64,000 nt of DNA from a virus (IMGVR_UViG_3300029543_000174:50821-114820); one strand, 5' to 3'. Shown: positions 4,578-64,000, counted from the first letter of the stretch. The notes: generated by a model not told the origin, from the letters alone. Numbers and translations: made by a program.

Positions 4578-5042
4578 ATGTCAAAATACAATCCGGATAA
4601 CATTAAAGATTTAAAGGAATTTATTGGCTTGCTTACAGGTGATGCTGGTTATTTTCCTGATGAACTTTTTGATTTTGATGCAACACTTCTTGGTAAAGCA
4701 ATGGAAAAACCATTAGTAAATCGCTCTGCAAAAACAATTTTTAGCGATGCTTTTCAAATTGCTTGTGATGAATTAACAAGTCAATTTACATGTATGGAAA
4801 TATTCCATTTCCCAGATAATGAAAAAGTAAATACATTTGTTCAAAAATGTATTCAAAAACATTTTTTGTCGGATTTATTTAAAATAAAAGGAGATGCTGT
4901 TTCTTCTTATATTGAATTTATTTGTAAAGACAAAGATGTTATTTCAGTAATGAAATTTCTTGATGAGGAAACCGGATGCTTTTCTTACTTTCAAGAAGAA
5001 GTACCAATAATCGAAAATTTTGATATTGTTTTAAATAATTAA
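4578..5042 (+). CDS. hypothetical protein (154 aa)
   Basis: ORF with a TAGGAGG RBS. Confidence 0.45.
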   Translation: MSKYNPDNIKDLKEFIGLLTGDAGYFPDELFDFDATLLGKAMEKPLVNRSAKTIFSDAFQIACDELTSQFTCMEIFHFPDNEKVNTFVQKCIQKHFLSDLFKIKGDAVSSYIEFICKDKDVISVMKFLDEETGCFSYFQEEVPIIENFDIVLNN

Positions 5043-5057
5043 TAAAAATTAAGATAT

Positions 5058-5087
5058 AAGCAGCAGGCTTATGCTTGCTGCTTATTT
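5058..5087 (+). terminator. hairpin AAGCAGCAGGC-TTAT-GCTTGCTGCTT followed by ATTT
   Basis: Inverted repeat followed by a T-rich tract. One of a family of similar AAGCAGCAGG hairpins. Confidence 0.4.
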
Positions 5088-5100
5088 GGAGGAAAATTTT

Positions 5101-6066
5101 ATGAATGAAGAAAAATTATGTGACTTAGTACAAGATTGTTTTGTATATGATAAATATGGAAAAGTGACCTTTGATCTTTGTGATTTTATACTTCTTTTTG
5201 ATGATTTTTCGGTTAATTCGGTTAAAGCCGTTTTTAAGTGTTTAACAGATAATCAAAAAGAATTTTTAAAAAACAACTTTACAAAGTTTAAAAATTTGCG
5301 TGATGACCTTATTTTGCCTTCAAGTAGTTATATTAGCTTAGAGGTATTAAATGATATGATTACAGGTGAATTTAAAAACGCTAAAATGCGACCGGCAACT
5401 GAGGAAGAACTAAAATCCGTTTCTGACGGAATTAAATCAATCTCAAAACCGGTTGTTGATAACAAAGAAGGAGAAAATATTATGGAAAAGTCAAATATTG
5501 TTTTTACGGATGAGGATATTTTAAGATTGGAAAAATTATACTCTCAGTCAGATTCTCTTTTTTTACAAGAATTATTAAAAATTCTGAACGAAAAGAATTC
5601 GTTTAATTGTGTTGAAAAGGATGTACTGAAAGAATTAATAAAATTAAATGATTTGGCTTATAACGAATATATTAATATATTTAGTCCGGAAACAATTTCA
5701 AAGTTTGATGAAGCTTATGTTGAATCGAGAAATGAATTCTTGAAACACTTGGGCTTAGATTATCTTGTCAATTTTGAAGAAAAATTTAAAGATAAACTTC
5801 GAAAGGAATTTAATGAGTTCATCAAATCGGTTCAGGAAGAACAGAAAACAAATCCAAATTATGCAATTCAACATGCATATGAGATTTGTTGGAAACAAGA
5901 AATTGTTTTTGTTTCTGAAGATGTTTGCTATGATAATTTTGGTATCTTTACAAAGAAAAGTCTTTTGAATACCAATGGCGTTTTGGATATCATTTATAAA
6001 GAATGGCTTGACACAGATTCAAGTGACATCAATGAACAAATTTCAAAAATTATAAGTGAAGTGTAA
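5101..6066 (+). CDS. hypothetical protein
   Basis: Start moved to the ATG at 5101, which has a GGAGGA RBS. The listed 5071 start lies inside the terminator hairpin. Confidence 0.45.
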   Translation: MNEEKLCDLVQDCFVYDKYGKVTFDLCDFILLFDDFSVNSVKAVFKCLTDNQKEFLKNNFTKFKNLRDDLILPSSSYISLEVLNDMITGEFKNAKMRPATEEELKSVSDGIKSISKPVVDNKEGENIMEKSNIVFTDEDILRLEKLYSQSDSLFLQELLKILNEKNSFNCVEKDVLKELIKLNDLAYNEYINIFSPETISKFDEAYVESRNEFLKHLGLDYLVNFEEKFKDKLRKEFNEFIKSVQEEQKTNPNYAIQHAYEICWKQEIVFVSEDVCYDNFGIFTKKSLLNTNGVLDIIYKEWLDTDSSDINEQISKIISEV

Positions 6067-46556: not shown

Positions 46557-48353
46557 GTGCCGGAAAAAGAAAAAAAGAATCAATATATTTTATCAATGGG
46601 CTTAGAAATTAATGCTGATGATAAAATTTATCTTGATAAGTATTTTGAATTTGTAAGAAAAATGCAAAATTATTTTATTTCTTATCAGCTAAAAAAATAT
46701 AACAAAATGGTAAGAGAAACAAATTATCAAGAATTAAAAATTCAAATTGATAATATTGATAAAGCTATTTCTAATTTCAACAGACAAATTATAAACCGTC
46801 AAAAAGTTATTGATGAAGGTGAAATATCTAAATGTGAAATCACTTCATACAAGAATGAAATTGCAGAATTGAAAAAAGATATTTCTTCTTTGAAAAAAGA
46901 AAAATCAAAATATCAAAAGCAAATTTATGAACTTTTGAAAGAATACAGGTTTAGTGATTTAAGTTTTAAATCCGATGTAGCTATATTTGACAAAATTGAT
47001 TATTTCACAAAACCTTGTTACAAAACAAAGAATGGTAAGCTTGCAAGAGATAAAAATGGTAACAAAATTCCTATTCTCGATGAAAACGGAAATGTAAAAA
47101 GAAAATGTTTTGTCTCTTCATTAGTGAGAAAATATTCTATTGCTGCACCGATTTGGTCAGCATTTGATAAAAAGTTCAAGGAAAACGGTGCAGTCCATTT
47201 TAAAAGCTTTTTAAATAAAAAATCAGTCAGCTCTATTGCATTCCCAGTTGGTAATTCTTTCAAAGGTAACAATGCTTTTGTTATTCCTTCTGTAGGCAAA
47301 ATAATTAAATATAAAATACCAAGAACCCAATACGAAAAGGAAGTATTTAACAAAGAAAATGTTAATGTTATCCGAATTAAAAGGATTTGGAAGAATACAA
47401 AATACAGCTATTCGGTTCAGTTTACTATAACAGGTGAACCTGTGTTAAGGAAAGACAAAGATAATTGTGTCAAACATCCACTTGGCACTGGTGTAGCAGG
47501 TGTAGGTATAAGTTTAAATGAATGTTGGATTTGCACTGAGAACACATTAAAAAGAGTTTCTTTAGTTCCACCTGATGCTTATGAGTTTGATAATGAAATA
47601 AAACAAATTGAAAGAGCAATGGATAGAAGTAAGCGTGCTACTAATCCAAATAATTTTGATGAAAAGGGTAGGGCAAAGAGCTTTTACGAAACGCCTGACC
47701 CTGATAACCCAGACAAAATCATCAAGTCAAAGCTCCGTTGGAGATTTTCAAAGCATTACAGAAAACTAAGTCAAAGAAAAGCTTATTTGGAAGGTATTAA
47801 TGCCAGAAAGCGTAAGCTTTATGACGAAAACCTTGTGAATGAATTATTGCTGTATTTCAATGAAATCAATATTCAAAAGAATGATTTCAAGAGAACTCAA
47901 ATGAGTAAACAAAAAGTCGGTGACAGCGCCGATGAAAAGAAAAAGGCTGGTTTACATATTAAAGAAGCATCACCTTCACAGTTCGTTGAAATTCTTAAAA
48001 GAAAAGTCATCAGCCACGGTGGTAAAGTAAATATCATTACTAAAAAGGAATGTCAAGCAACAGAATTCAATCATATAGACGGTAAGTTCTATGATATGCC
48101 TGTTTCTAACAGGTGGTTTGGTATGAGTGATGGTAATGTTCTTCAAAGAGATGCTCATACGGCTTTTAATCTATTGACACTTAATGATATAGAAAAAAGC
48201 AACAAACTTTATGATGACTTTTTAAAACAACATTCTGCCGAACTTGAAAAGTTTAATGTTGTTGCACCTGAACAGGTAAATATGGTTACTTGCAGTCAGG
48301 CAAAAGAAAAAAGAAAGTCAGCAAGAAAAACAAAAAAGAAAAATATTGCATGA
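46557..48353 (+). CDS. TnpB/Cas12-like RuvC-fold protein (598 aa), RuvC-I Asp apparently replaced by Ser
   Basis: GTG start with an AAGGAGG RBS. Region GTGVAGVGISLNE aligns with the TnpB RuvC-I block (ref. vGIDLG) with S in the D position. KLRWRFSKHYRKLSQRKAYL...LLLYFNEINIQKNDF aligns with the RuvC-II block (ref. vvvEdLnvkgm). SQFVEILKRKVISHGGKVNIITKKECQATEF aligns with the TnpB block FxxLxYKAxxxGxxVxxV with a degenerate zinc finger. QRDAHTAFNLL aligns with RuvC-III (ref. DRDxNAAxNIL). Confidence 0.55.
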   Translation: MPEKEKKNQYILSMGLEINADDKIYLDKYFEFVRKMQNYFISYQLKKYNKMVRETNYQELKIQIDNIDKAISNFNRQIINRQKVIDEGEISKCEITSYKNEIAELKKDISSLKKEKSKYQKQIYELLKEYRFSDLSFKSDVAIFDKIDYFTKPCYKTKNGKLARDKNGNKIPILDENGNVKRKCFVSSLVRKYSIAAPIWSAFDKKFKENGAVHFKSFLNKKSVSSIAFPVGNSFKGNNAFVIPSVGKIIKYKIPRTQYEKEVFNKENVNVIRIKRIWKNTKYSYSVQFTITGEPVLRKDKDNCVKHPLGTGVAGVGISLNECWICTENTLKRVSLVPPDAYEFDNEIKQIERAMDRSKRATNPNNFDEKGRAKSFYETPDPDNPDKIIKSKLRWRFSKHYRKLSQRKAYLEGINARKRKLYDENLVNELLLYFNEINIQKNDFKRTQMSKQKVGDSADEKKKAGLHIKEASPSQFVEILKRKVISHGGKVNIITKKECQATEFNHIDGKFYDMPVSNRWFGMSDGNVLQRDAHTAFNLLTLNDIEKSNKLYDDFLKQHSAELEKFNVVAPEQVNMVTCSQAKEKRKSARKTKKKNIA

Positions 48354-48365
48354 CAGCAATGTTGA

Positions 48366-48516
48366 TATAGGTAGACTTAGCTACCTAAAACTACCGGTAA
48401 ACGCATTTTTGTGTTTGGTAGTAATGAAATAATTAAGGTTAAGCAGTTAGTTGGTTTGCGTTTGTCAGAACTTAATAGAGCTGTTTGACAAGATTATACA
48501 GTGTAATTAATTTGAG
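48366..48516 (+). other. conserved array leader, copy 1 (about 150 bp; contains TTGACA-N17-TAATTT)
   Basis: About 90% identical to 49690..49825 and 50502..50652. Confidence 0.5.
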
Positions 48517-48618
48517 GTTTTGGTACTGTAGTAGATTACACTACTCTAAAAGAAATATATTGGGAGTGTCTGAAAAATCCATGTTTTGGTACTGTAGTAA
48601 ATTACACTACTCTAATTA
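48517..48618 (+). CRISPR. CRISPR-like mini-array 1 (2 repeats of 36 nt, 1 spacer of 30 nt)
   Basis: Repeat GTTTTGGTACTGTAGTA(A/G)ATTACACTACTCTAAAAG. Spacer AAATATATTGGGAGTGTCTGAAAAATCCAT. The second repeat has a degenerate 3' end. A terminator hairpin follows at 48618-48638. Confidence 0.5.
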
Positions 48619-48638
48619 CACCATTTGGTGTGTTTTAT
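48618..48638 (+). terminator. hairpin ACACCATTTGGTGTG followed by TTTTAT
   Basis: Inverted repeat with a T-run after array 1. Confidence 0.5.
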
Positions 48639-48668
48639 ATAAAAAATAATTTAGGAGGAAAAAATATA

Positions 48669-48769
48669 TGTCATTCAATATGGTTATGGTTATTATTTGT
48701 GCTGTAATTCTTGTTGCTTGCATTATTGCTCTTATTGTAAGAGGCATTAAGAGTAAGCGCAATAAGTAA
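48669..48769 (+). CDS. small hydrophobic peptide (33 aa)
   Basis: GGAGGAAAAAA RBS. Sequence MSFNMVMVIICAVILVACIIALIVRGIKSKRNK. Similar in shape to the peptide at 52312. Confidence 0.3.
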
Positions 48770-48824
48770 TTAAGTACAAATACAGCATCCCCGGATACGC
48801 TGATTAAACATTATCCGGGAATGT

Positions 48825-48911
48825 GACAATGTAGTTTAACGGTAAAACACAAAAGTTGTTTTTTTGATCCTCCTTCGACTTTTGGATGTAAGTTCAAATC
48901 TTACCATTGCC
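48825..48911 (+). tRNA. atypical tRNA-like gene (possible anticodon UGU; 21-nt variable arm; one acceptor-stem mismatch)
   Basis: Canonical T arm (GTAAG-TTCAAAT-CTTAC) and D arm (GTTT-AACGGTA-AAAC) by eye. The anticodon loop is ambiguous because of a T7 run. Confidence 0.3.
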
Positions 48912-48921
48912 AATAAGATAT

Positions 48922-49007
48922 GCTGATGTGATGGAATGGCAGACAGAAGAGACTTAAAATCTCTTGGTGGAAACATCGTGTGAGTTCGACTCTCACCATC
49001 AGCACCA
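48922..49007 (+). tRNA. tRNA-Leu (UAA), type II with long variable arm, CCA encoded
   Basis: Acceptor GCTGATG/CATCAGC. Anticodon stem AGAGA/TCTCT with loop CTTAAAA. T arm GTGAG-TTCGACT-CTCAC. Confidence 0.7.
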
Positions 49008-49355
49008 CTGCAGGGCCCAAGTGAAAGGTCTAAGAAGTTTCACAACGGTATAAGATATTTCTTGGCTGGTTTTTGCCGTGTGCTGGAATGCACTGAATCA
49101 ATAACCTTACAGACAGTATCAAAAAAGTTAGGACTTTTTGTATTGGAAGGGTTGCTGACCTTTCCGTAGTTTTTCTAATGATTTAAAGGAAGTTAAGCAA
49201 AAGTGTACATATTACTTTACTGAATTTAATCACCGTATTAACACGCTGATAGACAGTATTTCTCCCACAATTCGGGAAGTAAAGAGATCTATTGGTTGAA
49301 AGTAAATGGATACGGCAGAACAGTGCACATCTGCCGTATCACGATTATTAAATAC

Positions 49356-49430
49356 GCAGATATGATGTAATCGGTAGCATACAACTCTTCCACAGTTGGT
49401 GTGCGAGTTCAAACCTCGTTATCTGCTCCA
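49356..49430 (+). tRNA. tRNA-Gly (UCC), CCA encoded
   Basis: Acceptor GCAGATA/TATCTGC. Anticodon stem CAACT/AGTTG with loop CTTCCAC. T arm GCGAG-TTCAAAC-CTCGT. Confidence 0.75.
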
Positions 49431-49436
49431 AAATAT

Positions 49437-49512
49437 TCTCCATTAGTTCAGAAGGTAGAACGGTAGACTGTTAATCTATATGTCATTGGTTCAAATCCAA
49501 TATGGAGAGCCA
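49437..49512 (+). tRNA. tRNA-Asn (GUU), CCA encoded
   Basis: Acceptor TCTCCAT/ATGGAGA. D arm GTTC-AGAAGGTA-GAAC. Anticodon loop CTGTTAA. T arm ATTGG-TTCAAAT-CCAAT. Confidence 0.8.
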
Positions 49513-49515
49513 AAC

Positions 49516-49591
49516 GGACCGTTAGCTTAGTAGGTAAAGCAACCGGCTCATAACCGGTAAACCATGGGTTCAAATCCTATACGGTCCACCA
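49516..49591 (+). tRNA. tRNA-Met (CAU) (elongator-type; Ile2/lysidine alternative not excluded)
   Basis: Acceptor GGACCGT/ACGGTCC with 1-72 paired. D arm GCTT-AGTAGGTA-AAGC. Anticodon stem ACCGG/CCGGT with loop CTCATAA. Confidence 0.8.
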
Positions 49592-49594
49592 TAT

Positions 49595-49670
49595 GTGTCA
49601 TTAGCTCAGTAGGTAGAGCAACAGACTTTTAATTTGCAGGTCAAGGGTTCAATTCCCTTATGACACACCA
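49595..49670 (+). tRNA. tRNA-Lys (UUU), CCA encoded
   Basis: Acceptor GTGTCAT/ATGACAC. D arm GCTC-AGTAGGTA-GAGC. Anticodon loop CTTTTAA, with one A-C mismatch in the anticodon stem. T arm AAGGG-TTCAATT-CCCTT. Confidence 0.7.
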
Positions 49671-49689
49671 CTTAATAGGGCTGAATTAG

Positions 49690-49825
49690 CAGCCTGATGC
49701 TACTGGTAAACACATTTTTGTGTTTGGTAGTAATGAAATAATCAAGGTTAAGCAGTTAGTTGGTTTGCATTTGTCAGAACTCAATAGAGCTGCTTAACAA
49801 GATTATATAGTGTAATTAATTTGAG
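49690..49825 (+). other. conserved array leader, copy 2
   Basis: About 90% identical to leader copies 1 and 3. Confidence 0.5.
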
Positions 49826-49993
49826 GTTTTTGTACTGTAGTAAATTACACTACTCTAAAAGCGCCGCAGAATTGCTTCCACGGTGGTCTTTGTTTTGGTA
49901 CTGTAGTAAATTACACTACTCTAAAAGGACAGCTACAGTTTTAGGCACGGTTTTCTTGTTTTTGTACTGTAGTAAATTACACTACTCTTAACG
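49826..49993 (+). CRISPR. CRISPR-like mini-array 2 (3 repeats of 36 nt, 2 spacers of 30 nt)
   Basis: Repeats GTTTTTGTACTGTAGTAAATTACACTACTCTAAAAG, then the GTTTTGG variant, then a degenerate terminal repeat ending CTTAACG. Spacers CGCCGCAGAATTGCTTCCACGGTGGTCTTT and GACAGCTACAGTTTTAGGCACGGTTTTCTT. Confidence 0.55.
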
Positions 49994-50056
49994 TTGTTTG
50001 TTTTGAGAAATGCAAGACAAAGAGTAGTAAATTTCATTTAAAAGAGGAAAAAATAA

Positions 50057-50497
50057 ATGCATTTAGATACAGCAGTAATATTTTTTATTGGTGTTCCTGT
50101 ATATTTGCTAATGGCATTATTATCAAGAAAATTTGCGTATGTTGAAGCATCAATTGGATTGCTAATATGTTCAATTGTTAGCCTATTTACAGAAAACACA
50201 GGAATAATTTGTTTGGTGATATATTTTGGACCATTCATTGTTTCAGCTATTATGAAACCAATAGAAAATAGGATAAATAAAAAGAAACAAGAAAAAGAAT
50301 TGCATAAATTTGCGGATATGCAAAAAGGAAAGGTGGGTGTTATCCATGAATTAGAAGATGGCAACTTATATTTATTCCTCTCAGGTAGATATTGGCAAAT
50401 ATCCGAACAGTCGAGAATTAAATATAATTGTGAGGAACAAGATGCCGTTAAGGTATTAGATATTAATACAGATAGACTTATCGTTAAGCCTATTTAG
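50057..50497 (+). CDS. NfeD-like membrane protein (short form)
   Basis: N-terminal TM segments. The C-terminus GKVGVIHELEDGNLYLFLSGRYWQISEQ...AVKVLDINTDRLIVKP fits the NfeD OB-fold pattern (ref. G.G.v..G..W.A.s...i..G..V.V....L.V.P). Confidence 0.5.
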   Translation: MHLDTAVIFFIGVPVYLLMALLSRKFAYVEASIGLLICSIVSLFTENTGIICLVIYFGPFIVSAIMKPIENRINKKKQEKELHKFADMQKGKVGVIHELEDGNLYLFLSGRYWQISEQSRIKYNCEEQDAVKVLDINTDRLIVKPI

Positions 50498-50501
50498 TAT
50501 A

Positions 50502-50652
50502 TATGGGTAGACTTAGCTACCTGAAACTACCGGTAAACGCATTTTTGCGCTTGGTAGTAATGAAATAATCGAGATTAAGCAGTTAGTTGGTTTGCATTCG
50601 TCAGAACTTAATAGAGCTGTTTGATAAGATTATGTAGTCGTAATAATTTGAG
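50502..50652 (+). other. conserved array leader, copy 3
   Basis: About 90% identical to leader copies 1 and 2. Confidence 0.5.
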
Positions 50653-50818
50653 GTTTTAGAACCATATATAACTACACTACTCTAAAAGTACCGAAGAAGA
50701 ACGAAGCGGTGCATAAAAGTTTTAGAACCATATATAACTACACTACTCTAAAAGGTCTGAGATAGTTGCAACAATAAAAAACTTTGGAACTGTATTATAT
50801 TACACTATTTTTTAAAAA
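50653..50818 (+). CRISPR. CRISPR-like mini-array 3 (2 clean repeats plus 1 degenerate; spacers of about 30 nt)
   Basis: Repeat variant GTTTTAGAACCATATATAACTACACTACTCTAAAAG appears twice. Spacer TACCGAAGAAGAACGAAGCGGTGCATAAAA. The third unit is degenerate (TGGAACTGTATTATATTACACTATTTTTT). Confidence 0.5.
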
Positions 50819-50833
50819 AAGGAGATAAAAATT

Positions 50834-51238
50834 ATGCTAAAAATTGCAAAACCAAACTTCTTCGTAAATGAAGAAAAGAGAACAATCGTTGGTAAGTTGA
50901 TTATGCCGGATGATAAAGAATTATTTGATGTTGCTCAATTAGTTGACGAGGTTGACGAAGATTTCTGTTATGAAAATCTTAAAAATTCCTATGACTTTAC
51001 TATTTTTGAAGCAAAGGCAAAGTGCTGCCCCGAAGACAAGTGGGATGTAGAAAAAGGAAAGGCCATTGTTAATGAACGATTGGGTAAAATGATTATTCAA
51101 AGAGTTAAACGTCAGGCTAAAGAAGAAAGAACAAAAATTATTAATCGTATCAGTGAACTCGATGAAATCATAAAGCATTGTGATAAAAGCATCGACAATT
51201 CAAACAAACATATTGATAAAATTATCAAGGGGGAATAA
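50834..51238 (+). CDS. hypothetical protein
   Basis: AAAGGAGA RBS. Confidence 0.45.
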   Translation: MLKIAKPNFFVNEEKRTIVGKLIMPDDKELFDVAQLVDEVDEDFCYENLKNSYDFTIFEAKAKCCPEDKWDVEKGKAIVNERLGKMIIQRVKRQAKEERTKIINRISELDEIIKHCDKSIDNSNKHIDKIIKGE

Positions 51239-51240
51239 TT

Positions 51241-52191
51241 ATGAGTTTAGCTAAGAAAGTATTATCGGTTGGTATTGCTTCTATTATGGCAATGTCAGCT
51301 ATTGGAGTTGGCACTACTGCACTTGCCGAACCAATTAATTCTGTTCAGTCGGCTACTTCAATTTCACTAAATGAGAGTAAAACTGTAACCTTGAAATATG
51401 GTGATATTGGTAATTATGATGACATCTCGGAAGATACTGTTTACTATAAGTTTACTGCTCCGACCACTAATTATTATGAATTTACCTTAACAGGTTACAA
51501 GACAAGAATTGATAATAATGACCCAAGTGCTTATATTGATATAACAGATGAATATGGCGTCAATGCATCGTCAAGTGGGGGCTTATTTAATCCGTATTTT
51601 AATGATGTAAAATCAATTGCCTATTTGGAACAAGGAAAGTCATATATAATCAATGTCTTTTACTCACCAATTGGTACTCAAGAGTACAATTCAAAGGACT
51701 ATGCCGAAACAGCAATTACACTAACTGTTTCTCCACATACACATGACATTACAAGTGTCGTTAATGACGGATATACAGACTACACCTGCAAGCGTTGCAA
51801 TTATTCATATACCGAATTTAAACCGTTACCGACATCTCCTTCACAGCCTACACAGGCTCCTACAAGCACTGTTACTCCAATAACAGCAAGTAAGGTATCA
51901 AAGCCAAAAAAGACTAAAATTAAAAAGGTAAAGGCTGCTAAGAAGGCATTGGCAGTTACTTGGAATAAAGTATCCGGCGTAAAAGGTTATCAAGTACAGG
52001 CTGCAACAGACAAAAAGTTCAAAAAGAACAAGAAAACTGTTACAATCAAGAAGCAAAAAACTACTAAGACAACCGTAAAGAAACTTAAAGCTAAGAAAAA
52101 GTATTACGTAAGAGTAAGAACTTACAAGACCATAAATGGAAAAAAGGTTTACTCGGCTTGGTCAAGTGTAAAAAATGTAAAAACTAAATAG
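51241..52191 (+). CDS. secreted protein with shared Lys-rich Fn3-like C-terminal module
   Basis: Signal peptide. The C-terminal ~100 aa are nearly identical to the C-terminus of the 60296 protein. Confidence 0.5.
   Translation: MSLAKKVLSVGIASIMAMSAIGVGTTALAEPINSVQSATSISLNESKTVTLKYGDIGNYDDISEDTVYYKFTAPTTNYYEFTLTGYKTRIDNNDPSAYIDITDEYGVNASSSGGLFNPYFNDVKSIAYLEQGKSYIINVFYSPIGTQEYNSKDYAETAITLTVSPHTHDITSVVNDGYTDYTCKRCNYSYTEFKPLPTSPSQPTQAPTSTVTPITASKVSKPKKTKIKKVKAAKKALAVTWNKVSGVKGYQVQAATDKKFKKNKKTVTIKKQKTTKTTVKKLKAKKKYYVRVRTYKTINGKKVYSAWSSVKNVKTK
51848..52140 (+). repeat. about 290 bp nearly identical to 63724..64000 (shared C-terminal module of two surface-protein genes)
   Basis: Direct comparison of the nucleotide strings gives about 93% identity. 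Confidence 0.7.
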
Positions 52192-52269
52192 ACTTTTTTG
52201 TAAATCTAAAAAGCACCATAGAATTTTGATTTTCTATGGTGCTTTTTTATTTTTCTAAAAATAAAAAAC

Positions 52270-52288
52270 TTGCGCGATATATATATTG
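52270..52288 (+). promoter_or_regulatory. short-form promoter-like core TTGCGCGATATATATATTG
   Basis: First of four tandem copies in 52.2-52.7 kb. Followed by a strong RBS and a 34-aa peptide gene. Confidence 0.5.
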
Positions 52289-52311
52289 AACGAAGCAGTT
52301 AGGAGGAATGT

Positions 52312-52416
52312 TATGACACTTACAGGAAACATAATTTTGCTGATTGTATGTTCAATTACATTTATTGCAAGTTTGACGGCTCTCATTTTGAGAAGTGTCA
52401 AAAAACACAAAAAATG
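52312..52416 (+). CDS. small hydrophobic peptide (34 aa)
   Basis: TTAGGAGGAATG RBS. Sequence MTLTGNIILLIVCSITFIASLTALILRSVKKHKK. Confidence 0.3.
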
Positions 52417-52446
52417 AAAAAATTTAATATTCAAAAATTTTAAAAA

Positions 52447-52465
52447 GTTGCGCGATATATAAAGT
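52447..52465 (+). promoter_or_regulatory. short-form promoter-like core TTGCGCGATATATAAAGTG
   Basis: Tandem copy 2. Confidence 0.45.
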
Positions 52466-52536
52466 GAAAGGTGAATAACACTCATTTGATATTAGAAATT
52501 TGGAGCTTGATTATAACCTTTCTGAAAATAAAAAAA

Positions 52537-52555
52537 TTGCGCGATATAGAAAATG
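52537..52555 (+). promoter_or_regulatory. short-form promoter-like core TTGCGCGATATAGAAAATG
   Basis: Tandem copy 3. Confidence 0.45.
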
Positions 52556-52673
52556 GTGAGGTTAAACCGCACTGGCGTAAATATCGTATTGAAAATTATA
52601 AAAAATCAAATAGAACCTGCTTTGAGTGTATATTTTGAGGATTTGTATTTGATTTTATGAAAAAAAATTTTCT

Positions 52674-52692
52674 TGCGCGATATCTTAAGTGA
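52674..52692 (+). promoter_or_regulatory. short-form promoter-like core TTGCGCGATATCTTAAGTG
   Basis: Tandem copy 4. Confidence 0.45.
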
Positions 52693-52932
52693 CAGCACTA
52701 ATAATCGAGCTGTTCAAAAGGCTGGATAAGCCGTTATTATGATTGTTTTAGTCTGAATATTACATAAAAATACTTGAATTAAAGGGTTTATACAAACATT
52801 GTTATTTACTCTTCGGGCAAAAATAATTCACTTTTTTGATGATATCAGGCTTGAACATATATCTATTCAATGCATCTAAACAAAATACTACTTTCCGCAT
52901 TGGAAATCTAATGAAAGGAGAACATATAGTAC

Positions 52933-53100
52933 ATGAAAACTATTTTCGAGGAATACGGTACAGTAATCATCGTTGCAATTGCTATCGTTGCTCTTATTGC
53001 TATCGTAACATTTATCCTTGGCGATGACCAGATTAAGGGCAAGTTCAAGGATCTTGTAACAAGCTTCTTCAATCAGGTTAAGTTTGACGCAGCAGCTTAA
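52933..53100 (+). CDS. Flp-like pilin candidate (55 aa)
   Basis: AAAGGAGAA RBS. MKTIFEEYGTVIIVAIAIVALIAIV has an EY-G motif followed by a hydrophobic helix, as in Flp prepilins (ref. IEYGLIAALIAV). Confidence 0.4.
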   Translation: MKTIFEEYGTVIIVAIAIVALIAIVTFILGDDQIKGKFKDLVTSFFNQVKFDAAA

Positions 53101-53212: not shown

Positions 53213-54508
53213 ATGGGAATTTTTAGTAAGAAAAATAATGATTTAGAGAATATAGAAAATACAGAAATCGTTACTCTGATAGAAGAAAAGAAAGAGAAAA
53301 CGGAATCTCAGATTATAAATGAGATGCAAAAGGATTATTTATCTAAAAGAGAAAATCTTGGCGATTGGGATTTAGAGCCTAAAGATTTCGGACCGGTATG
53401 GAGTTATGTTGCAGATGAAAATGTCACAGATATTAACTTGAATATGGACGGTCACGATTTGTGGATTACTGATTTAAACAAGGGTAAATATCGAGTTGAA
53501 CCGGAAACATTTAAACAAAAATGTGATGAATGGTTAGAAACACAGGATGCACTTGAATTTGGAAATACAGAGCAGCAGGATTCAAACAGTTTATTTGTAA
53601 AGCAATTCGTACACAGAGTTGGTAATAAGCAAAGTAGGCAATTTAATAAACAAAAACCGTTACTTGAAGCAGAAACAGGAAATCTTCGTATATCGTGCGT
53701 TCATTCATCTGCGGCAGTATCTGGTATATCAATATGTATAAGAAAAACACCACCTGTAATGAGAATTACACCTAAAAAAGCGTTAGAGCAAAAATATTTT
53801 ACAGAAGATATTTTGTGTTTGCTAACCAATTGCGTTAAGGCAAAAATGAATTTTGTCTTTTGCGGTGAACCGGGTGTAGGTAAAACAGAATGTGCAAAAT
53901 TCTTTTCCCAATTTATTAATGCTGAGGATAGAGTTATTACAATCGAAGATAACCCTGAATTACACTACAGAGAAATTAATCCCGGCAAGGATTGTGTTGA
54001 ATTGAAAGTATTTGAGCCTATGTTTACATACAGTACAGCTATTAAGGCTTGCCTTCGTCAAAACCCTCAATGGATTATGCTTTCTGAGGCACGTTCAACA
54101 GAAGTTAAATATCTTCTTGAATGTTGGTCAACCGGTGTATCAGGTTTTACTACACTTCATACTGATGATGTAAGAAAAATTCCGGACCGTATCCAAAACA
54201 TGATGGGAGATAGCAGAGATGCCGAAAGACTTGAAAATGATATTTTTTCTTTCGTAAATATTGGAATACTACTTCGTAAAAAGAAGGATGAAAACGGCAA
54301 TACATATCGTTATATTGATCAAGTTTGCTTTTTTGATAGAAGTAATGGTAAAAACAATATTGTGATGATGGTTGAAAACGGACAAATGATTAACAACAAT
54401 GGAGAAAAACCAAAAATTCCTGACTATATTTTAAAGCGGTTAAGCTTTGTGGATATAACTGATCCTTATTCGGGATTAAACGAAATTTTGAAGGGAGAAA
54501 AAGATTAA
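53213..54508 (+). CDS. CpaF/TadA (VirB11-family) secretion ATPase
   Basis: Walker A CGEPGVGKTE, RQNPQWIMLSEAR (ref. RxxPDxIxvGEiR), and a His box TLHTDD. Confidence 0.7.
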   Translation: MGIFSKKNNDLENIENTEIVTLIEEKKEKTESQIINEMQKDYLSKRENLGDWDLEPKDFGPVWSYVADENVTDINLNMDGHDLWITDLNKGKYRVEPETFKQKCDEWLETQDALEFGNTEQQDSNSLFVKQFVHRVGNKQSRQFNKQKPLLEAETGNLRISCVHSSAAVSGISICIRKTPPVMRITPKKALEQKYFTEDILCLLTNCVKAKMNFVFCGEPGVGKTECAKFFSQFINAEDRVITIEDNPELHYREINPGKDCVELKVFEPMFTYSTAIKACLRQNPQWIMLSEARSTEVKYLLECWSTGVSGFTTLHTDDVRKIPDRIQNMMGDSRDAERLENDIFSFVNIGILLRKKKDENGNTYRYIDQVCFFDRSNGKNNIVMMVENGQMINNNGEKPKIPDYILKRLSFVDITDPYSGLNEILKGEKD

Positions 54509-63200: not shown

Positions 63201-64000
63201 CAGTTCCTGCTACTTGTACTACTGATGGATACACTGCCGGTACCCATTGTTCGGTATGTAATAAAGTTATTTCTGCTCAAAAGGTTATTAAGGCTACAGG
63301 ACATAAGCCTACCAAAATTGCTGCTGTACCTGCTACTTGTTCTTCTACCGGACTAACGGAGGGTTCAGTATGCTCTGTATGTAAAACAGTATTGGTAGAA
63401 CAAAAGGTTGTTCCTGCACTTGACCATAAATGGGATAACGGTACTGTTACCGTTGAACCGACTTGTACAAAGGAAGGTAAAAAGGTTTATCATTGTGTTA
63501 ATTGCAATGAAACTATGATTGAATCAATCGGTAAAACAAATCATTCGTTTGGTAATAATCTTCCTAATTGTTCAGTATGTGGCGCTGCTAATCCAAATTA
63601 TGTAGCGCCAACAAAGCCAACTGAACATACTACAAAGCCTGCTGCTCCTTCACAGCCGCCACAGGCACCGATTCAGCCGAGTGTAATACCAAATGCTCCT
63701 GCTACAACAACACCTGTTCCTGTGCCTACACAGGCTCCTACAAGAGCTGTAGTAAAGGTATCAAAGCCTAAAAAGACTAAAATCAAAAAGGTAAAGGCTG
63801 CTAAGAAAGCATTAGCAGTTACTTGGAACAAAGTATCCGGCGTAAAAGGTTATCAAGTACAGGTTGCAACGGATAAAAAGTTCAAAAAGAACAAGAAAAC
63901 TGTTACAATCAAGAAACAGAAAACAACTAAGACAACCGTAAAGAAGCTTAAAGCTAAGAAAAAGTATTACGTAAGAGTAAGAACTTACAAAACTGTAAAG
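60296..64000 (+). CDS. giant secreted protein: transglutaminase-like cysteine-protease core, at least 8 Cys-rich ~32-aa repeats (ATC..GYTGDTVC.VC.K), Pro-rich linker, shared Fn3-like tail; 3' end beyond window
   Basis: Frame 2 is open from 60296 to the window end; I translated it and found no stop. Signal peptide MKKTLSFLLAFALIFSTVIVPVSAFA. GICSGFS...HSWNV...TDCS forms a Cys/His/Asp triad. Confidence 0.6.
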   Translation, partial: MKKTLSFLLAFALIFSTVIVPVSAFADTDFSNYSKYVYDSNSDPIDYNKVAVFKDYDELEKYIQSLNLKLENKPELIDGLVCYITSGYGGYGSDQDYDKPLVISLGYGPTNTFDDGIYDQALAGPYSVKLYPIKSNYMSDCLFQVRVDNGIYTTEQINEYYKTIKRAFDEMDLYDKSDYAKATSIVSWIGNNISYNDDNYQNVATAMLINKDGICSGFSSLVNYFCNIVGIESYEMGSIAHSWNVLKINGKYYFTDCSNIITARLMSAKDFGRVDEKTWVGGQSNDYYIEMINTAPYVKLHIVDEETWNDPGWKSLKQFVLDFMDNLTLVGIDTIGLVGDTRYHTHSSPYTISKTKIKKSNSSSNNLISDDNCNLKYENIDEKFTQTSKCSVNGYMTGYFTDRTAYYTDNDVITENARPIKDCILNGNTGDKAVKLTTKETQVDQFDNPTDKTVNFTENRVIETGKVIKNNKTSHNYYKRTIKNYTCDKDTVIEFVCKDCGERFCLVKYCDNHQFKTYVDVTPNTCTSDGKINIYDGNATDYDFKSKSFKGVSLNKLNHNIKTEVVDNGTLERTYCDNTSNEITLTTDDIKNNLMNCLYSSDYDGVDDLKWNKTQDRRFWEFNCDNQNGQTPTITMKLLAKGISDGVSNYGTSLYFTIKDDKTNEVKTYNFCYNDKTKVATLTNVNDKTDVLPAEAKIDGVTITLSVKANSVYKRYGYSYSYLNGRFYEIRTNGAFSDMFGTNCYIKFTYDNCNYETTKELDHFYQESNRTPASCTKEGTVEYTCKHCGAKKYDTLPLAEHTAIIQNKKDSTCAEEGYTGDTVCSVCGKTLKKGTAVPKKDHTYKITTVSANCTSQGYDEYTCIYCGYSYKTNYVEPNGKHVPKYGVNKKEATCTEKGYTGDTVCTVCNKVIEKGSETNPKNHSYVLTTVSATCVSEGYDLYTCSNCGDSYKTNIVAPNNKHTVVVDKAVPATCTTDGYTAGTHCSVCNKVISAQKVIKATGHKPTKIAAVPATCSSTGLTEGSVCSVCKTVLVEQKVVPALDHKWDNGTVTVEPTCTKEGKKVYHCVNCNETMIESIGKTNHSFGNNLPNCSVCGAANPNYVAPTKPTEHTTKPAAPSQPPQAPIQPSVIPNAPATTTPVPVPTQAPTRAVVKVSKPKKTKIKKVKAAKKALAVTWNKVSGVKGYQVQVATDKKFKKNKKTVTIKKQKTTKTTVKKLKAKKKYYVRVRTYKTVK

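What the first reader, a model, noticed from the sequence alone, without database searches (positions are those of the whole stretch)
48825..49670. tRNA island (Leu-UAA, Gly-UCC, Asn-GUU, Met-CAU, Lys-UUU plus one aberrant tRNA-like gene) embedded between the arrays
Five cloverleaves fold convincingly by eye, each with an encoded CCA. They decode A/U-ending codons, which fits an AT-rich element that is supplementing the host tRNA pool. The sixth candidate (48825-48911) has perfect T and D arms. Its anticodon stem contains a T7 run, and it has a 21-nt variable arm, an acceptor-stem mismatch and a possible UGU anticodon. It could be a suppressor, a degenerate tRNA or a tRNA-like regulatory element. 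The region 49020-49340 has no ORF and carries a 10-bp inverted repeat (ATACGGCAGA...TCTGCCGTAT). It may hold a further RNA.
Basis: seen in the sequence. Interest (0 to 1): 0.6.

Follow-up and report, generated by a model that had tools for sequence, protein, structure and literature searches.

The report
tRNA gene cluster between mini-CRISPR arrays
A large AT-rich mobile element from human gut bacteria carries five ordinary tRNA genes and one malformed tRNA-like gene between its small CRISPR arrays; such tRNA clusters are familiar, and only the malformed gene and a conserved stretch of spacer are at all unusual.

Summary
ARAGORN and Rfam both call six tRNA-type genes at 48825-49670. Five are canonical and encode CCA: Leu-UAA, Gly-UCC, Asn-GUU, a CAU tRNA and Lys-UUU. 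The CAU gene has A3-T70, C4-G69 and C5-G68, so it is probably tRNA-Ile2, which reads AUA, not tRNA-Met. The six genes are in the same order in 13 related contigs (34-817 kb; at least one labelled human gut). The codons they would read are over-used in this 30% GC element, except GGA.

The sixth gene is tRNA-like but probably not a normal decoder. It has U37, an A2xC71 mismatch and no CCA. A T6/T7 length polymorphism sits in its supposed anticodon arm. Its predicted fold buries "UGU" in a 9-bp helix under a 17-nt loop (U7-GAUCCUCCUU). It shares its exact D-arm and 21-nt variable-region length with a widespread viral long-variable-arm tRNA-Ile(UAU) family. It lacks that family's variable-arm helix and its anticodon.

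The 350-nt spacer shows no tracrRNA-like pairing, Rfam match or hidden tRNA. Its first 168 nt are unusually invariant and end in a terminator-like hairpin. That suggests two tRNA sub-operons and possibly a trailer-derived small RNA.

There is no sign of a suppressor tRNA or stop-codon recoding. Verdict: an ordinary kind of feature with one odd member.

The parts
48790..48819 (+). Hairpin CCCGGATA-N14-TATCCGGG, 5 nt upstream of the aberrant tRNA-like gene. Role unknown.
   Evidence: Read from the sequence and folded. Across 14 genomes the changes fall in the loop, in the outermost pair and downstream, not in the 7-bp stem core. That pattern is not statistically significant.
48825..48912 (+). 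Aberrant tRNA-like gene ('tRNA-X'; ARAGORN calls it Thr-UGU). It has tRNA-type acceptor, D and T arms and no encoded CCA. The predicted fold replaces the anticodon arm with a 9-bp helix (48850-48858 pairing with 48876-48884) and a 17-nt loop, U7GAUCCUCCUU.
   Evidence: ARAGORN; Rfam 48.8 bits; T6/T7 polymorphism; fold energies and pair probabilities; D-arm shared with a viral tRNA-Ile(UAU) family.
48922..49007 (+). tRNA-Leu(UAA), class II, with encoded CCA.
   Evidence: Invariant in 14 genomes.
49008..49175 (+). Conserved trailer after tRNA-Leu, ending in a terminator-like hairpin (49144-49166) followed by GUAGUUUUUCU. Candidate end of the first tRNA sub-operon, and possibly a trailer-derived small RNA.
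   Evidence: Terminator-like site. Only 2 variable columns in 168 nt, against 29 in 361 nt of flanking non-coding DNA (Fisher p=0.0006). No significant fold (z=-1.2), no Rfam hit, no anti-repeat.
49176..49355 (+). Second half of the spacer, with a perfect 10-bp hairpin (49310-49319 / 49330-49339) 16 nt upstream of tRNA-Gly. Presumed promoter or 5' leader of the second tRNA sub-operon.
   Evidence: Fold z=-2.5, driven by the hairpin. The A49338G variant keeps pairing as U.G. No consensus promoter was called on the + strand.
49356..49430 (+). tRNA-Gly(UCC), with encoded CCA.
49437..49512 (+). tRNA-Asn(GUU), with encoded CCA.
49516..49591 (+). tRNA with anticodon CAU, with encoded CCA. Most likely tRNA-Ile2 (lysidine-dependent, reads AUA). 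Neither elongator nor initiator tRNA-Met.
   Evidence: A3-T70, C4-G69, C5-G68 and C11-G24 read and judged by the criteria in PMC1635315. Scores 46.4 bits on the viral tRNA-Ile model.
49595..49670 (+). tRNA-Lys(UUU), with encoded CCA.
   Evidence: Natural variants U40C (G.U to G-C) and C43U (AxC to A-U) improve the anticodon stem.
46557..48353 (+). Context: 598-aa TnpB-like (Cas12-like) nuclease gene directly upstream of the first array.
   Evidence: homologues include annotated TnpB and transposase proteins at about 27% identity. No Pfam hit.
48366..48618 (+). Context: leader-plus-mini-array module 1 (2 repeats, 1 spacer), followed by a terminator-like hairpin at 48617-48632.
49675..49993 (+). 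Context: leader-plus-mini-array module 2 (3 repeats, 2 spacers). It starts 5 nt after the CCA of tRNA-Lys.
50503..50754 (+). Context: leader-plus-mini-array module 3, with a variant repeat and a degenerate further repeat downstream.

Best explanation
This is a tRNA gene cluster of the kind commonly carried by large phages and other big mobile elements. It sits in a roughly 30% GC element found in gut metagenomes, probably of clostridial hosts.

Five genes are ordinary, functional tRNAs with encoded CCA: Leu-UAA, Gly-UCC, Asn-GUU, Ile2-CAU (read as Met by gene finders) and Lys-UUU. They are arranged as two sub-operons:
1. tRNA-X and tRNA-Leu, then a conserved 168-nt trailer and a terminator-like hairpin.
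2. A hairpin-containing leader, then Gly, Asn, Ile2 and Lys.

Their most likely role (inferred) is to sustain translation of the element's very A/U-rich genes, mainly AAA, AAU, UUA and AUA codons.

The sixth gene, tRNA-X, keeps the tRNA 'top half' and the D arm, so RNase P and RNase Z should process it like a tRNA (inferred). It has probably lost normal decoding. It looks like a diverged relative of a viral long-variable-arm tRNA family. Its anticodon arm and variable region now pair into one long helix with a large loop.

The island's position between the CRISPR mini-arrays appears to be a matter of gene order. Each array has its own conserved leader with a promoter-like element.
For: Shown:
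- Six tRNA calls from two independent methods.
- CCA encoded in five of them.
- Same six genes in the same order in 13 related contigs from independent metagenomes.
- The five clean tRNAs vary less than flanking non-coding DNA: 13 of 389 columns against 29 of 361, p=0.004. Variants in tRNA-Lys and tRNA-Ile2 are compatible with the structure or improve it.
- The CAU gene has the Ile(CAT) discriminators A3-T70, C4-G69 and C5-G68, and lacks the fMet discriminator A11-T24.
- Codon use. AAA, AAT, ACA, TTA and ATA rank 1st, 3rd, 8th, 9th and 15th of 61 codons. They include 4 of the 5 most-used A-ending codons. Random anticodon sets do as well in 1.7-3.3% of trials. Against the proxy, excess-use ranks are AAA 1st, AAT 2nd, TTA 5th, ACA 11th and ATA 15th.
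- Terminator-like hairpin at 49144-49166 plus a U-run, and an invariant trailer.

tRNA-X:
- U37 and G32, A2xC71, no CCA.
- The T6 allele occurs in 2 of 14 genomes, from two independent assemblies.
- With the acceptor, D and T stems enforced, the 9-bp helix fold is -13.5 kcal/mol, against -6.0 to -9.7 for the ARAGORN fold. Pair probability is 0.97 against 0.03, in both alleles, and the indel lies in the loop.
- Its body varies less than the flanks: 2 of 88 columns, p=0.04.
- Its 18-nt D-arm is the hallmark of long viral tRNA-Ile(UAU) genes (51 of 74 unique tRNAs with that motif). Its 21-nt variable region matches their 20-26 nt. Only 2.4% of other class I tRNAs are that long.

Arrays: the three leaders share -35 TTGACA/TTAACA/TTGATA, 17 nt, then TAATTT, just before the first repeat.
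Against: - The host is not identified. The array repeat is absent from 185,579 representative genomes, so supplementation is tested only against a proxy.
- Gly-UCC does not fit codon compensation: GGA ranks 30th by use and 57th by excess.
- All relatives that carry the island are about 96-100% identical. Constraint tests therefore have little power, and recombination tracts could mimic them. No covariation is available for tRNA-X or the spacer.
- More diverged relatives of the flanking genes have no island at all.
- The fold argument for tRNA-X is thermodynamic only. The helix is A/U-rich and only marginally unusual (z=-2.0, 47 of 1000 shuffles). Real tRNAs are shaped by modifications and tertiary contacts.
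- ACA is the third most-used A-ending codon, which would suit a working tRNA-Thr(UGU).
- The viral tRNA-Ile family model scores tRNA-X (47.8 bits) barely above the CAU tRNA (46.4 bits), and all three variable-arm pairs fail.
- No promoter was identified for either sub-operon.
Confidence: 0.7

Rival explanations
1. tRNA-X is a working tRNA-Thr(UGU) that reads ACA, despite its odd anticodon loop and large unpaired variable loop. CCA would be added after transcription.
For: ARAGORN assigns Thr(tgt) and Rfam gives 48.8 bits. U33 and the U34-G35-U36 anticodon are present. The anticodon is an identity element for ThrRS (PMC9976931). ACA is the top Thr codon (50%), 8th of all codons and 3rd among A-ending codons. 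The gene body varies less than its flanks.
Against: Position 37 is U, where a purine is almost universal, and position 32 is G. The 2-71 pair is an A-C mismatch in the acceptor stem, where ThrRS identity elements lie. No CCA is encoded, though all five neighbours encode it. The T6 allele would leave a 6-nt loop, and ARAGORN then assigns no anticodon. The 5-bp A/U anticodon stem is outcompeted by the 9-bp helix, 0.03 against 0.97.
Confidence: 0.2
2. The tRNAs mainly serve as nuclease-resistant replacements for host tRNAs that are cut by anticodon nucleases during defence, rather than as codon supplements. tRNA-X could be a decoy.
For: Van den Berg et al. 2023 propose this as a general role for phage tRNAs and find no codon-compensation signal in their data set (PMC10264068). 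Lys-UUU and Asn-GUU belong to classes targeted by PrrC and colicin E5, as cited there. Gly-UCC is not explained by codon use.
Against: Host tRNAs are unknown, so no diagnostic anticodon-loop differences can be shown. The anticodon loops of the five clean tRNAs are canonical. The codon-use match is significant. The two roles are not mutually exclusive.
Confidence: 0.2
3. tRNA-X is a decaying pseudogene with no function. Its low variation simply reflects the shallow divergence of the available genomes.
For: Multiple defects: U37, A2xC71, no CCA, a length-polymorphic homopolymer, and loss of the variable-arm helix and loop motif of its presumed parent family. All genomes carrying the island are about 96-100% identical.
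Against: It has 2 variable columns in 88 nt. At the flank rate of 8% about 7 would be expected (p=0.04). In the divergent haplotype, five substitutions pile up within the 21 nt immediately upstream, while the body carries only a loop indel and one T-loop change. The T, D and acceptor arms are otherwise perfect.
Confidence: 0.3
4. The tRNAs act as processing punctuation for the CRISPR transcripts, like synthetic tRNA-guide RNA arrays. RNase P and 3' trimming at the tRNAs would release the leader-array RNAs from a long operon transcript.
For: Neither of the element's own promoter-like motif classes occurs between 46.5 kb and the strong terminator at 52208-52247. Leader 2 starts 5 nt after the CCA of tRNA-Lys with no terminator between.
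Against: All three leaders share a promoter-like -35/-10 pair just before the first repeat, including leaders 1 and 3, which follow protein genes and not tRNAs. Terminator-like hairpins lie at 48617-48632 and 49144-49166. Only one of the three arrays directly follows a tRNA.
Confidence: 0.1
5. The 350-nt spacer encodes the tracrRNA or another structured guide-scaffold RNA for the neighbouring TnpB-like nuclease.
For: It is non-coding, lies between arrays next to a compact nuclease gene, and is partly invariant.
Against: No repeat:anti-repeat pairing beyond chance on either strand (z=-0.2 and +1.2 for repeat type 1; +2.2 and +1.1 for type 3). No Rfam match at E up to 5. Fold z=-1.6 for the whole spacer and -0.2 for the conserved part without the terminator. 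No similarity elsewhere in the window.
Confidence: 0.04
6. tRNA-X, or a hidden gene in the spacer, is a suppressor tRNA that serves an alternative genetic code.
For: At an 80% threshold ARAGORN reports a 'tRNA-Pyl(cta)' at 49136-49225.
Against: That call is noise: 17 of 200 shuffles give a call at that threshold, none at default, and its arms are full of mismatches. No reading of tRNA-X gives CUA, UCA or UUA. Stop-codon use is normal and the window is 80% coding under table 11.
Confidence: 0.01

Closest known systems
tRNA gene clusters of large phages, for example the phage T4 tRNA region
   Same: Tightly packed tRNA genes separated by a few bases, split into sub-clusters by a few hundred bases of non-coding DNA. 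[quoted passage not shown] That parallels tRNA-X and the conserved trailer.
   Different: No sequence relationship: the island matches INPHARED phages only through generic tRNA similarity. Whether this element is a phage at all is unsettled. IMG/VR lists it as viral, but it also carries a sortase and a VirB11-like ATPase.
Huge phages carrying many tRNAs together with compact CRISPR arrays (Al-Shayeb et al. 2020, PMC7162821)
   Same: Large elements that encode their own tRNAs, distinct from host tRNAs, and short CRISPR arrays (median six repeats). The contigs carrying this element are 169-817 kb.
   Different: Here the arrays are extremely short (1-2 spacers). They are split into three leader-array modules interleaved with the tRNAs, next to a 598-aa TnpB-like gene. 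I did not find this specific interleaving described, but I did not search for it exhaustively.
Viral long-variable-arm tRNA-Ile(UAU) family
   Same: tRNA-X has the identical 18-nt D-arm TAGTTTAACGGTAAAACA, a 21-nt variable region (the family has 20-26 nt) and the same overall length. It aligns without internal gaps to the 91-nt members.
   Different: The family has a covarying variable-arm helix with a CAGAUWA loop, a UAU anticodon with A37, and an encoded ACCA. tRNA-X has none of these, and the family model does not separate it from an ordinary tRNA.
3' external transcribed spacer of the E. coli glyW-cysT-leuZ tRNA operon (3'ETS-leuZ), a small-RNA sponge
   Same: A sequence lying between the last tRNA of an operon, also a tRNA-Leu, and the operon terminator, which is excised during tRNA processing and acts as a regulatory RNA (PMC8166272). 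The segment 49008-49175 has the same position and shows sequence constraint without strong structure.
   Different: 3'ETS-leuZ is 53 nt; this trailer is about 140-168 nt. No expression data, no partner RNAs and no sequence similarity. This is an analogy, not membership.
Non-decoding tRNA-like RNAs used as processing or stability modules, such as gammaherpesvirus MHV68 vtRNAs and mascRNA (from my own knowledge, not checked here)
   Same: Cloverleaf-like RNAs with intact acceptor and T domains but no usable anticodon loop. They are recognised by RNase P, RNase Z and the CCA-adding enzyme but are not aminoacylated.
   Different: Those are eukaryotic or eukaryotic-virus RNAs. No bacterial or phage counterpart with an extended anticodon arm was identified here, apart from one loose analogue in L043, L051 and L083.

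Membership tests
tRNA (Rfam RF00005) | Cloverleaf sequence and structure scoring at or above the curated gathering score (29 bits). | tested here: met
   All six genes score 48.8-73.5 bits. ARAGORN calls all six.
Decoding-competent elongator tRNA | A 7-nt anticodon loop with U33 and a purine at position 37, closed by a stable 5-bp stem. | tested here: met
   Met for Leu, Gly, Asn, CAU and Lys (alignments; the CAU tRNA's cloverleaf is its minimum-energy fold).
Decoding-competent elongator tRNA (applied to tRNA-X) | A 7-nt anticodon loop with U33 and a purine at position 37, closed by a stable 5-bp stem. | tested here: not met
   The loop is GUUGUUU, with G32 and U37. The stem CAAAA/UUUUG has pair probability 0.03, against 0.97 for the competing 9-bp helix. 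The T6 allele leaves a 6-nt loop.
tRNA-Ile2 (anticodon CAU, lysidine-modified) | Acceptor-stem discriminators: A3 or G3 with T70 or C70 excludes Met and fMet; C4-G69 and C5-G68 are frequent in Ile(CAT) (Silva et al. 2006). | tested here: met
   The gene reads G1 G2 A3 C4 C5 G6 U7 ... A66 C67 G68 G69 U70 C71 C72. Criteria quoted.
tRNA-Ile2 (anticodon CAU, lysidine-modified) | Not an initiator: lacks A11-T24 in the D stem. | tested here: met
   The pair is C11-G24; criterion.
tRNA-Ile2 (anticodon CAU, lysidine-modified) | C34 converted to lysidine by host TilS, followed by charging with Ile. | not testable with these tools
   Needs mass spectrometry or an aminoacylation assay. TilS determinants also differ between bacteria.
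Class II tRNA (Leu/Ser/Tyr type) | A long variable region that forms a base-paired stem-loop. | tested here: not met
   For tRNA-X, ARAGORN draws the 21 nt as an unpaired loop. Only a 4-bp AUCC/GGAU stem around a 13-nt loop is possible, and it is disfavoured. tRNA-Leu(UAA) at 48922-49007 does meet this feature.
Viral long-variable-arm tRNA-Ile(UAU) family | D-arm TAGTTTAACGGTAAAACA together with a 20-26 nt variable region. | tested here: met
   Exact D-arm and a 21-nt variable region. The D-arm was the search key, so only the length is independent evidence.
Viral long-variable-arm tRNA-Ile(UAU) family | A covarying 3-4 bp variable-arm helix capped by a CAGAUWA loop. | tested here: not met
   The family helix covaries, and 51 of 52 members have the AGAT[AT][AG] motif. 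In tRNA-X all three pairs fail and the motif is absent.
Viral long-variable-arm tRNA-Ile(UAU) family | UAU anticodon with A37, and an encoded CCA. | tested here: not met
   tRNA-X has UGU, U37 and no CCA. In the family, 44 of 52 end in ACCA.
Viral long-variable-arm tRNA-Ile(UAU) family | Scores clearly better than unrelated tRNAs on a covariance model of the family. | tested here: inconclusive
   tRNA-X scores 47.8 bits, the top hit, against 46.4 bits for the CAU tRNA.
Suppressor tRNA / recoded genetic code | An anticodon complementary to a stop codon, and in-frame stop codons in genes under the standard code. | tested here: not met
   No CUA, UCA or UUA anticodon. 80% coding and normal stop-codon use under table 11. 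The relaxed-threshold 'Pyl(cta)' call is noise.
tracrRNA | An anti-repeat segment complementary to the CRISPR repeat. | tested here: not met
   Duplex energies between the repeat and the spacer fall within the shuffle distribution.
Intrinsic terminator (49144-49175) | A G+C-rich hairpin followed by a U-run. | tested here: met
   GGAAGGG-UUGCUGA-CCUUUCC followed by GUAGUUUUUCU. Whether it actually terminates transcription is not testable here.
tRNA-operon 3' trailer-derived small RNA (3'ETS type) | Lies between the last tRNA and the terminator, accumulates as a stable RNA and has base-pairing partners. | tested here: inconclusive
   Position and sequence constraint are met. Accumulation and partners cannot be tested. 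No extended complementarity within the window.

The most novel reading that the evidence does not exclude
tRNA-X is not a tRNA remnant but a tRNA-scaffolded regulatory RNA. The acceptor, D and T arms would provide RNase P/Z processing and stability. The anticodon arm is rebuilt as a 9-bp stem that displays a 16-17-nt loop, U6-7-GAUCCUCCUU. That loop contains an anti-Shine-Dalgarno-like motif resembling the 3' end of 16S rRNA. TCCTCCT occurs only once on the + strand of the 64-kb window, in this loop. Such an RNA could mask ribosome-binding sites (AGGAGGA) or bind a ribosomal or other RNA-binding protein during the element's life cycle.
Probability: 0.08. Interest if true: 0.7.

Novelty: new member of a known kind. 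Interest (0 to 1): 0.3.

Why it matters
As a tRNA cluster on a large AT-rich mobile element, this is expected biology. It adds one more case consistent with codon supplementation, since four or five of the six genes match the element's most over-used codons.

Three smaller points are practical:
1. Gene finders label the CAU gene 'Met'. It is probably the AUA-reading tRNA-Ile2, which changes what the island is inferred to supply.
2. The 'Thr' call for the sixth gene should not be counted as decoding capacity.
3. The work exposed a widespread viral tRNA-Ile(UAU) family with a covarying long variable arm. I could not find it described, and it may deserve its own study.

If tRNA-X or the conserved trailer proved to be regulatory RNAs, they would be rare examples of tRNA-scaffolded or tRNA-operon-derived small RNAs on a mobile element.

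Tried and rejected
1. tracrRNA or anti-repeat in the spacer, leaders and other intergenic regions. RNAduplex against shuffles gave no signal. The only 'hits' were degenerate terminal repeats on the opposite strand.
2. Known RNA families. A permissive Rfam scan of 48300-51300 returned only the six tRNAs plus sub-threshold noise.
3. A hidden tRNA or suppressor in the spacer. The ARAGORN 'Pyl(cta)' call at the 80% threshold is noise. The spacer has no similarity to about 730 viral tRNAs or to the rest of the window.
4. Intron-containing and organellar modes of ARAGORN gave no alternative reading of tRNA-X. An archaeal-type intron reading would leave a 3-nt variable loop and still U37, so I rejected it by inspection.
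5. Covariation analysis of tRNA-X and the spacer was impossible. Every island-bearing relative is at least about 96% identical. Homologues of the nuclease at 54-56% identity and 80 homologues of the ATPase at 46-60% identity have no island.
6. Host identification. The array repeat is absent from the representative genomes. ATPase relatives point to Lachnospiraceae and other Clostridia but are not the same element.
7. Other tRNAs with an anti-SD-like variable loop. The pattern scan of the viral collection gave two non-tRNA chance hits. None of about 730 viral tRNAs has CCTCCT in the variable region.
8. An extended target for the tRNA-X loop elsewhere in the window: none.
9. Spacer targets among all held sequences: none.
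10. Literature on long-variable-arm tRNA-Ile: nothing found.
11. The element's promoter motifs and sigma-70 consensus upstream of either tRNA group: nothing convincing.
Full report
**1. Observation**

ARAGORN finds six tRNA genes in the whole 64-kb window. All are on the + strand, between 48824 and 49670:

| Gene (ARAGORN) | Coordinates | Rfam RF00005 bits (threshold 29) |
|---|---|---|
| 'Thr'(tgt) | 48824-48913 | 48.8 |
| Leu(taa) | 48922-49007 | 52.5 |
| Gly(tcc) | 49356-49430 | 59.4 |
| Asn(gtt) | 49437-49512 | 69.9 |
| Met(cat) | 49516-49591 | 73.5 |
| Lys(ttt) | 49595-49670 | 71.5 |

The five clean genes each end in an encoded CCA; the first does not. The inverted repeat lies at 49310-49319 and 49330-49339.

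**2. Context**

- The window is about 30% GC, and all substantial ORFs are on the + strand.
- A 598-aa ORF (46557-48353) lies directly upstream. Its only recognisable relatives are TnpB-family RNA-guided nucleases, at about 27% identity. Pfam finds nothing.
- Three mini CRISPR-type arrays follow it: 36-nt repeats, 30-nt spacers, 1-2 spacers each. Each is preceded by a roughly 155-nt leader kept in three copies at about 87% identity.
- The tRNA island fills most of the gap between modules 1 and 2.
- The same element is present on IMG/VR contigs of 169 and 192 kb, and on ten metagenome contigs of 200-817 kb, at least one of them labelled human gut. Its ORF146 is indexed in 259 blocks of the collection.
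- Other genes include a sliding-clamp-like protein, a helicase, methyltransferases, a sortase, LRR surface proteins and a VirB11-like ATPase.
- The nearest cultured or deposited relatives are uncultured 'Bacteriophage sp.' records from human faeces, at about 36% protein identity. Whether the element is a phage or another large extrachromosomal element is unsettled.
- Relatives of the ATPase (46-60% identity) occur in Lachnospiraceae, Roseburia, Eubacterium and related genomes, at a median 44% GC. None has a tRNA island, arrays or the nuclease.
- Homologues of the nuclease at 54-56% identity also lack tRNAs and arrays nearby.

So the island is specific to one shallow lineage.

**3. The five clean tRNAs**

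All 13 related contigs carry the same six genes in the same order.

Across 14 genomes the five clean tRNAs have 13 variable columns in 389 nt. Flanking non-coding DNA has 29 in 361 nt (p=0.004). The variants are compatible with the structure:
- In tRNA-Lys, U40C turns G.U into G-C, and C43U repairs the A27xC43 mismatch.
- In the CAU tRNA, A64G gives a U.G pair.

The CAU gene reads G1 G2 A3 C4 C5 ... G68 G69 U70, with C11-G24. According to Silva et al. 2006 (PMC1635315):
- A3/T70 excludes tRNA-Met and tRNA-fMet and indicates tRNA-Ile(CAT).
- C4-G69 and C5-G68 are typical of tRNA-Ile(CAT).
- A11-T24 marks fMet.

The gene is therefore best typed as tRNA-Ile2, which reads AUA after lysidine modification. 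That typing rests on sequence discriminators derived from bacterial genomes. The modification itself cannot be tested here.

**4. Function of the set**

In 67 ORFs (17,093 codons) the cognate codons are heavily used:

| Codon | Rank among 61 codons |
|---|---|
| AAA | 1 |
| AAT | 3 |
| ACA | 8 |
| TTA | 9 |
| ATA | 15 |
| GGA | 30 |

- Random anticodon sets reach the observed summed usage in 1.7-3.3% of trials.
- Among A-ending codons the ranking is AAA, GAA, ACA, TTA, ATA. The island therefore covers four of the top five, if tRNA-X is counted.
- Against a crude host proxy (ORFs of the 80 clostridial loci), the most element-enriched codons are AAA (1st), AAT (2nd), TTA (5th), ACA (11th) and ATA (15th). 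GGA is depleted, at 57th.

Codon supplementation is thus a reasonable inferred role for Lys, Asn, Leu and Ile2, but not for Gly. The true host remains unknown.

The anti-defence hypothesis for phage tRNAs (PMC10264068) cannot be excluded, and it is compatible with supplementation.

There is no evidence of recoding. Stop codons are TAA 51, TGA 10 and TAG 6, and the window is 80% coding under table 11.

**5. The aberrant gene (tRNA-X)**

*Arguments against ordinary decoding:*
- G32 and U37 in the loop, an A2xC71 mismatch, and no encoded CCA among five neighbours that all encode it.
- A T6 allele occurs in two independent assemblies (L002 and L131). ARAGORN can no longer assign it an anticodon.
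- The fold. The minimum-energy and centroid structures of both alleles pair CAAAAGUUG (48850-48858) with CGACUUUUG (48876-48884). 'UGU' is then inside a 9-bp helix, leaving a 16-17-nt loop, U6-7GAUCCUCCUU.
- With the acceptor, D and T stems enforced, this architecture is -13.5 kcal/mol. The ARAGORN cloverleaf is -6.0, or -9.7 with a variable-region stem. Pair probabilities are 0.97 against 0.03.
- In this fold the T-run indel lies in the apical loop, which explains why it is tolerated.

*Caveats:* the helix is A/U-rich and only marginally unusual (z=-2.0). No covariation is available.

*Arguments for some retained function:*
- The gene body has 2 variable columns in 88 nt. Five changes crowd into the 21 nt just upstream in the divergent haplotype (p=0.04 against the flanks).
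- ACA is a top codon.

**6. Origin of tRNA-X**

Its 18-nt D-arm, used as a search pattern, retrieved more than 119 viral loci.
- Among 74 unique tRNAs with that motif, 51 are unusually long (89-96 nt) tRNA-Ile(UAU) genes. Their variable region is 20-26 nt.
- In an alignment of 53 unique members the variable arm is a real helix, with many compensatory changes. It is capped by a conserved CAGAUWA loop.
- Only 2.4% of other class I viral tRNAs in the same loci are that long.
- tRNA-X aligns without internal gaps to the 91-nt members.

However, tRNA-X lacks the variable-arm helix, the loop motif, the UAU anticodon, A37 and the CCA. A covariance model of the family scores it 47.8 bits, barely above the unrelated CAU tRNA at 46.4 bits.

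I therefore treat 'diverged derivative of this family' as likely but not proven, and I do not file tRNA-X as a member.

Among 732 unique viral tRNAs, only tRNA-X passes a strict screen for a single extended helix with a large loop. One other gene, in L043, L051 and L083, has the same D-arm and an 11-bp extended arm, but it is not positionally homologous.

**7. The 350-nt spacer**

*Negative results:*
- No Rfam family at E up to 5.
- No anti-repeat.
- No similarity to the rest of the window or to viral tRNAs.
- No unusual global fold (z=-1.6).
- The relaxed-threshold 'tRNA-Pyl(cta)' call is noise.

*Positive results:*
- A terminator-like hairpin at 49144-49166 with a U-run.
- The stretch from the end of tRNA-Leu to that site (49008-49175) has only 2 variable columns in 168 nt (p=0.0006 against the flanks).
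- The block from tRNA-X through tRNA-Leu to the end of the trailer has 4 variable columns in 351 nt.
- The second half (49176-49355) varies more, at 3.9 columns per 100 nt. Its fold signal comes from the perfect hairpin, whose one natural variant keeps pairing.

The simplest reading is two tRNA sub-operons, with a constrained 3' trailer that may itself be a small RNA. That would be analogous to 3'ETS-leuZ in E. coli (PMC8166272) and reminiscent of RNAC and RNAD in the T4 tRNA region (PMC3014915). Expression is untested.

**8. Relation to the arrays**

- Fourteen near-identical genomes hold 30 distinct spacers, while the tRNA island is fixed. The arrays therefore turn over independently of the island.
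- Neither of the element's own promoter-like motif classes lies between 46.5 kb and the strong terminator at 52208-52247. Leader 2 begins 5 nt after the CCA of tRNA-Lys.
- However, all three leaders share a promoter-like -35/-10 pair immediately before the first repeat.

A role for the tRNAs as processing punctuation for the CRISPR transcripts is therefore possible but not needed.

**9. Verdict**

This is a real and largely ordinary tRNA gene cluster on a large AT-rich gut mobile element.
- One label needs correcting: Met should be Ile2.
- One gene is tRNA-like but probably does not decode.
- One segment of the spacer is constrained, and its role is unknown.

Nothing supports a suppressor tRNA, a recoded genetic code or a tracrRNA. 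Interest is modest. The most novel reading still open is a tRNA-scaffolded RNA that displays an anti-Shine-Dalgarno-like loop. It rests on a post hoc motif observation and a thermodynamic fold, and I give it a low probability.

Noticed in passing
window 46557-48353, with 48366-48618, 49675-49993 and 50503-50820: A 598-aa TnpB-like nuclease gene is followed by three leader-plus-mini-array modules. Repeats are 36 nt and spacers 30 nt, with 1-2 spacers per array. The three leaders of about 155 nt are about 87% identical and share a promoter-like TTGACA-17 nt-TAATTT just before the first repeat. This looks like a very compact element-borne type V-like CRISPR system.
   Followed up: partly
arrays in the window, L001, L002, L005 and L130-L139: Fourteen genomes that are about 96-100% identical hold 30 distinct spacers. 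Array 3 uses repeat variant GTTTTAGAACCATATATAACTACACTACTCTAAAAG in some genomes and the array 1/2 repeat type in others.
   Followed up: partly
L006-L124, for example L024:3666-3759 and L021:1403-1493: A widespread viral family of long (89-96 nt) tRNA-Ile(UAU) genes. They have an invariant D-arm, a covarying variable-arm helix, a conserved CAGAUWA variable-arm loop and an encoded ACCA. There are 53 unique sequences from many IMG/VR contigs. Among cultured phages I found it only in Lactobacillus phage LpeD and Levilactobacillus phage ENFP1. I found no paper describing it.
   Followed up: partly
L043:5487-5578, L051:8063-8154, L083:1187-1278 (- strand): A 92-nt tRNA-like gene that ARAGORN calls Leu(caa). 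It has the same D-arm as tRNA-X and an 11-bp A/U-rich helix with a roughly 14-nt loop in place of a normal anticodon arm, and no CCA. It is a loose structural analogue of tRNA-X in an unrelated viral contig.
   Followed up: partly
window 48866-48875 (inside tRNA-X): The loop sequence GAUCCUCCUU resembles the anti-Shine-Dalgarno end of 16S rRNA. TCCTCCT occurs only once on the + strand of the 64-kb window, here. CCTCC occurs 4 times on the + strand, against 31 for GGAGG.
   Followed up: partly
window + strand: 6847, 10538, 18957, 21718, 30644, 37631, 46261 (class A); 8066, 39591, 52270, 52448, 52537, 52673 (class B): Two classes of strand-specific promoter-like motifs recur upstream of gene blocks: AAATATTTGCGATTTATATA, usually with a second TTTGCGAA about 40 nt upstream, and TTGCGCGATATATA. 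Four class B copies lie within 450 nt at 52245-52693. They do not fit a sigma-70 consensus and may be the element's own promoters.
   Followed up: partly
window 48668-48769; also 52286-52417 and 52933-53100: Small ORFs encoding single-pass hydrophobic peptides, two of them with basic C-terminal tails (33, 43 and 55 aa). The first has a strong AGGAGG ribosome-binding site and lies between array 1 and the tRNA island. The 33-aa and 55-aa ORFs are called as genes in the ten relatives L130-L139.
   Followed up: no
L134:1889-3136 and 4652-5878; L138:14723-15949; about 600-bp ORF upstream of the nuclease gene in most relatives: HNH_3-like and RRXRR-domain (PF14239) endonuclease genes are present or absent around the nuclease gene and the ATPase gene in otherwise near-identical genomes. 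That suggests mobile homing-endonuclease insertions.
   Followed up: no
L140-L219: The VirB11/T2SSE-type ATPase (window 53213-54508) has relatives at 46-60% identity in many Lachnospiraceae, Roseburia, Eubacterium and Faecalicatena genomes, including complete chromosomes. This module is therefore shared with integrated elements of gut Clostridia, which is the best clue to host range.
   Followed up: partly
window 51875-52136 and 63738-63999: A 262-nt direct repeat at 91% identity, 11.9 kb apart. One copy lies in the C-terminal Lys/Thr-rich part of ORF 51241-52191, and the other runs to the end of the window. This suggests a shared C-terminal domain in two surface-type proteins.
   Followed up: no
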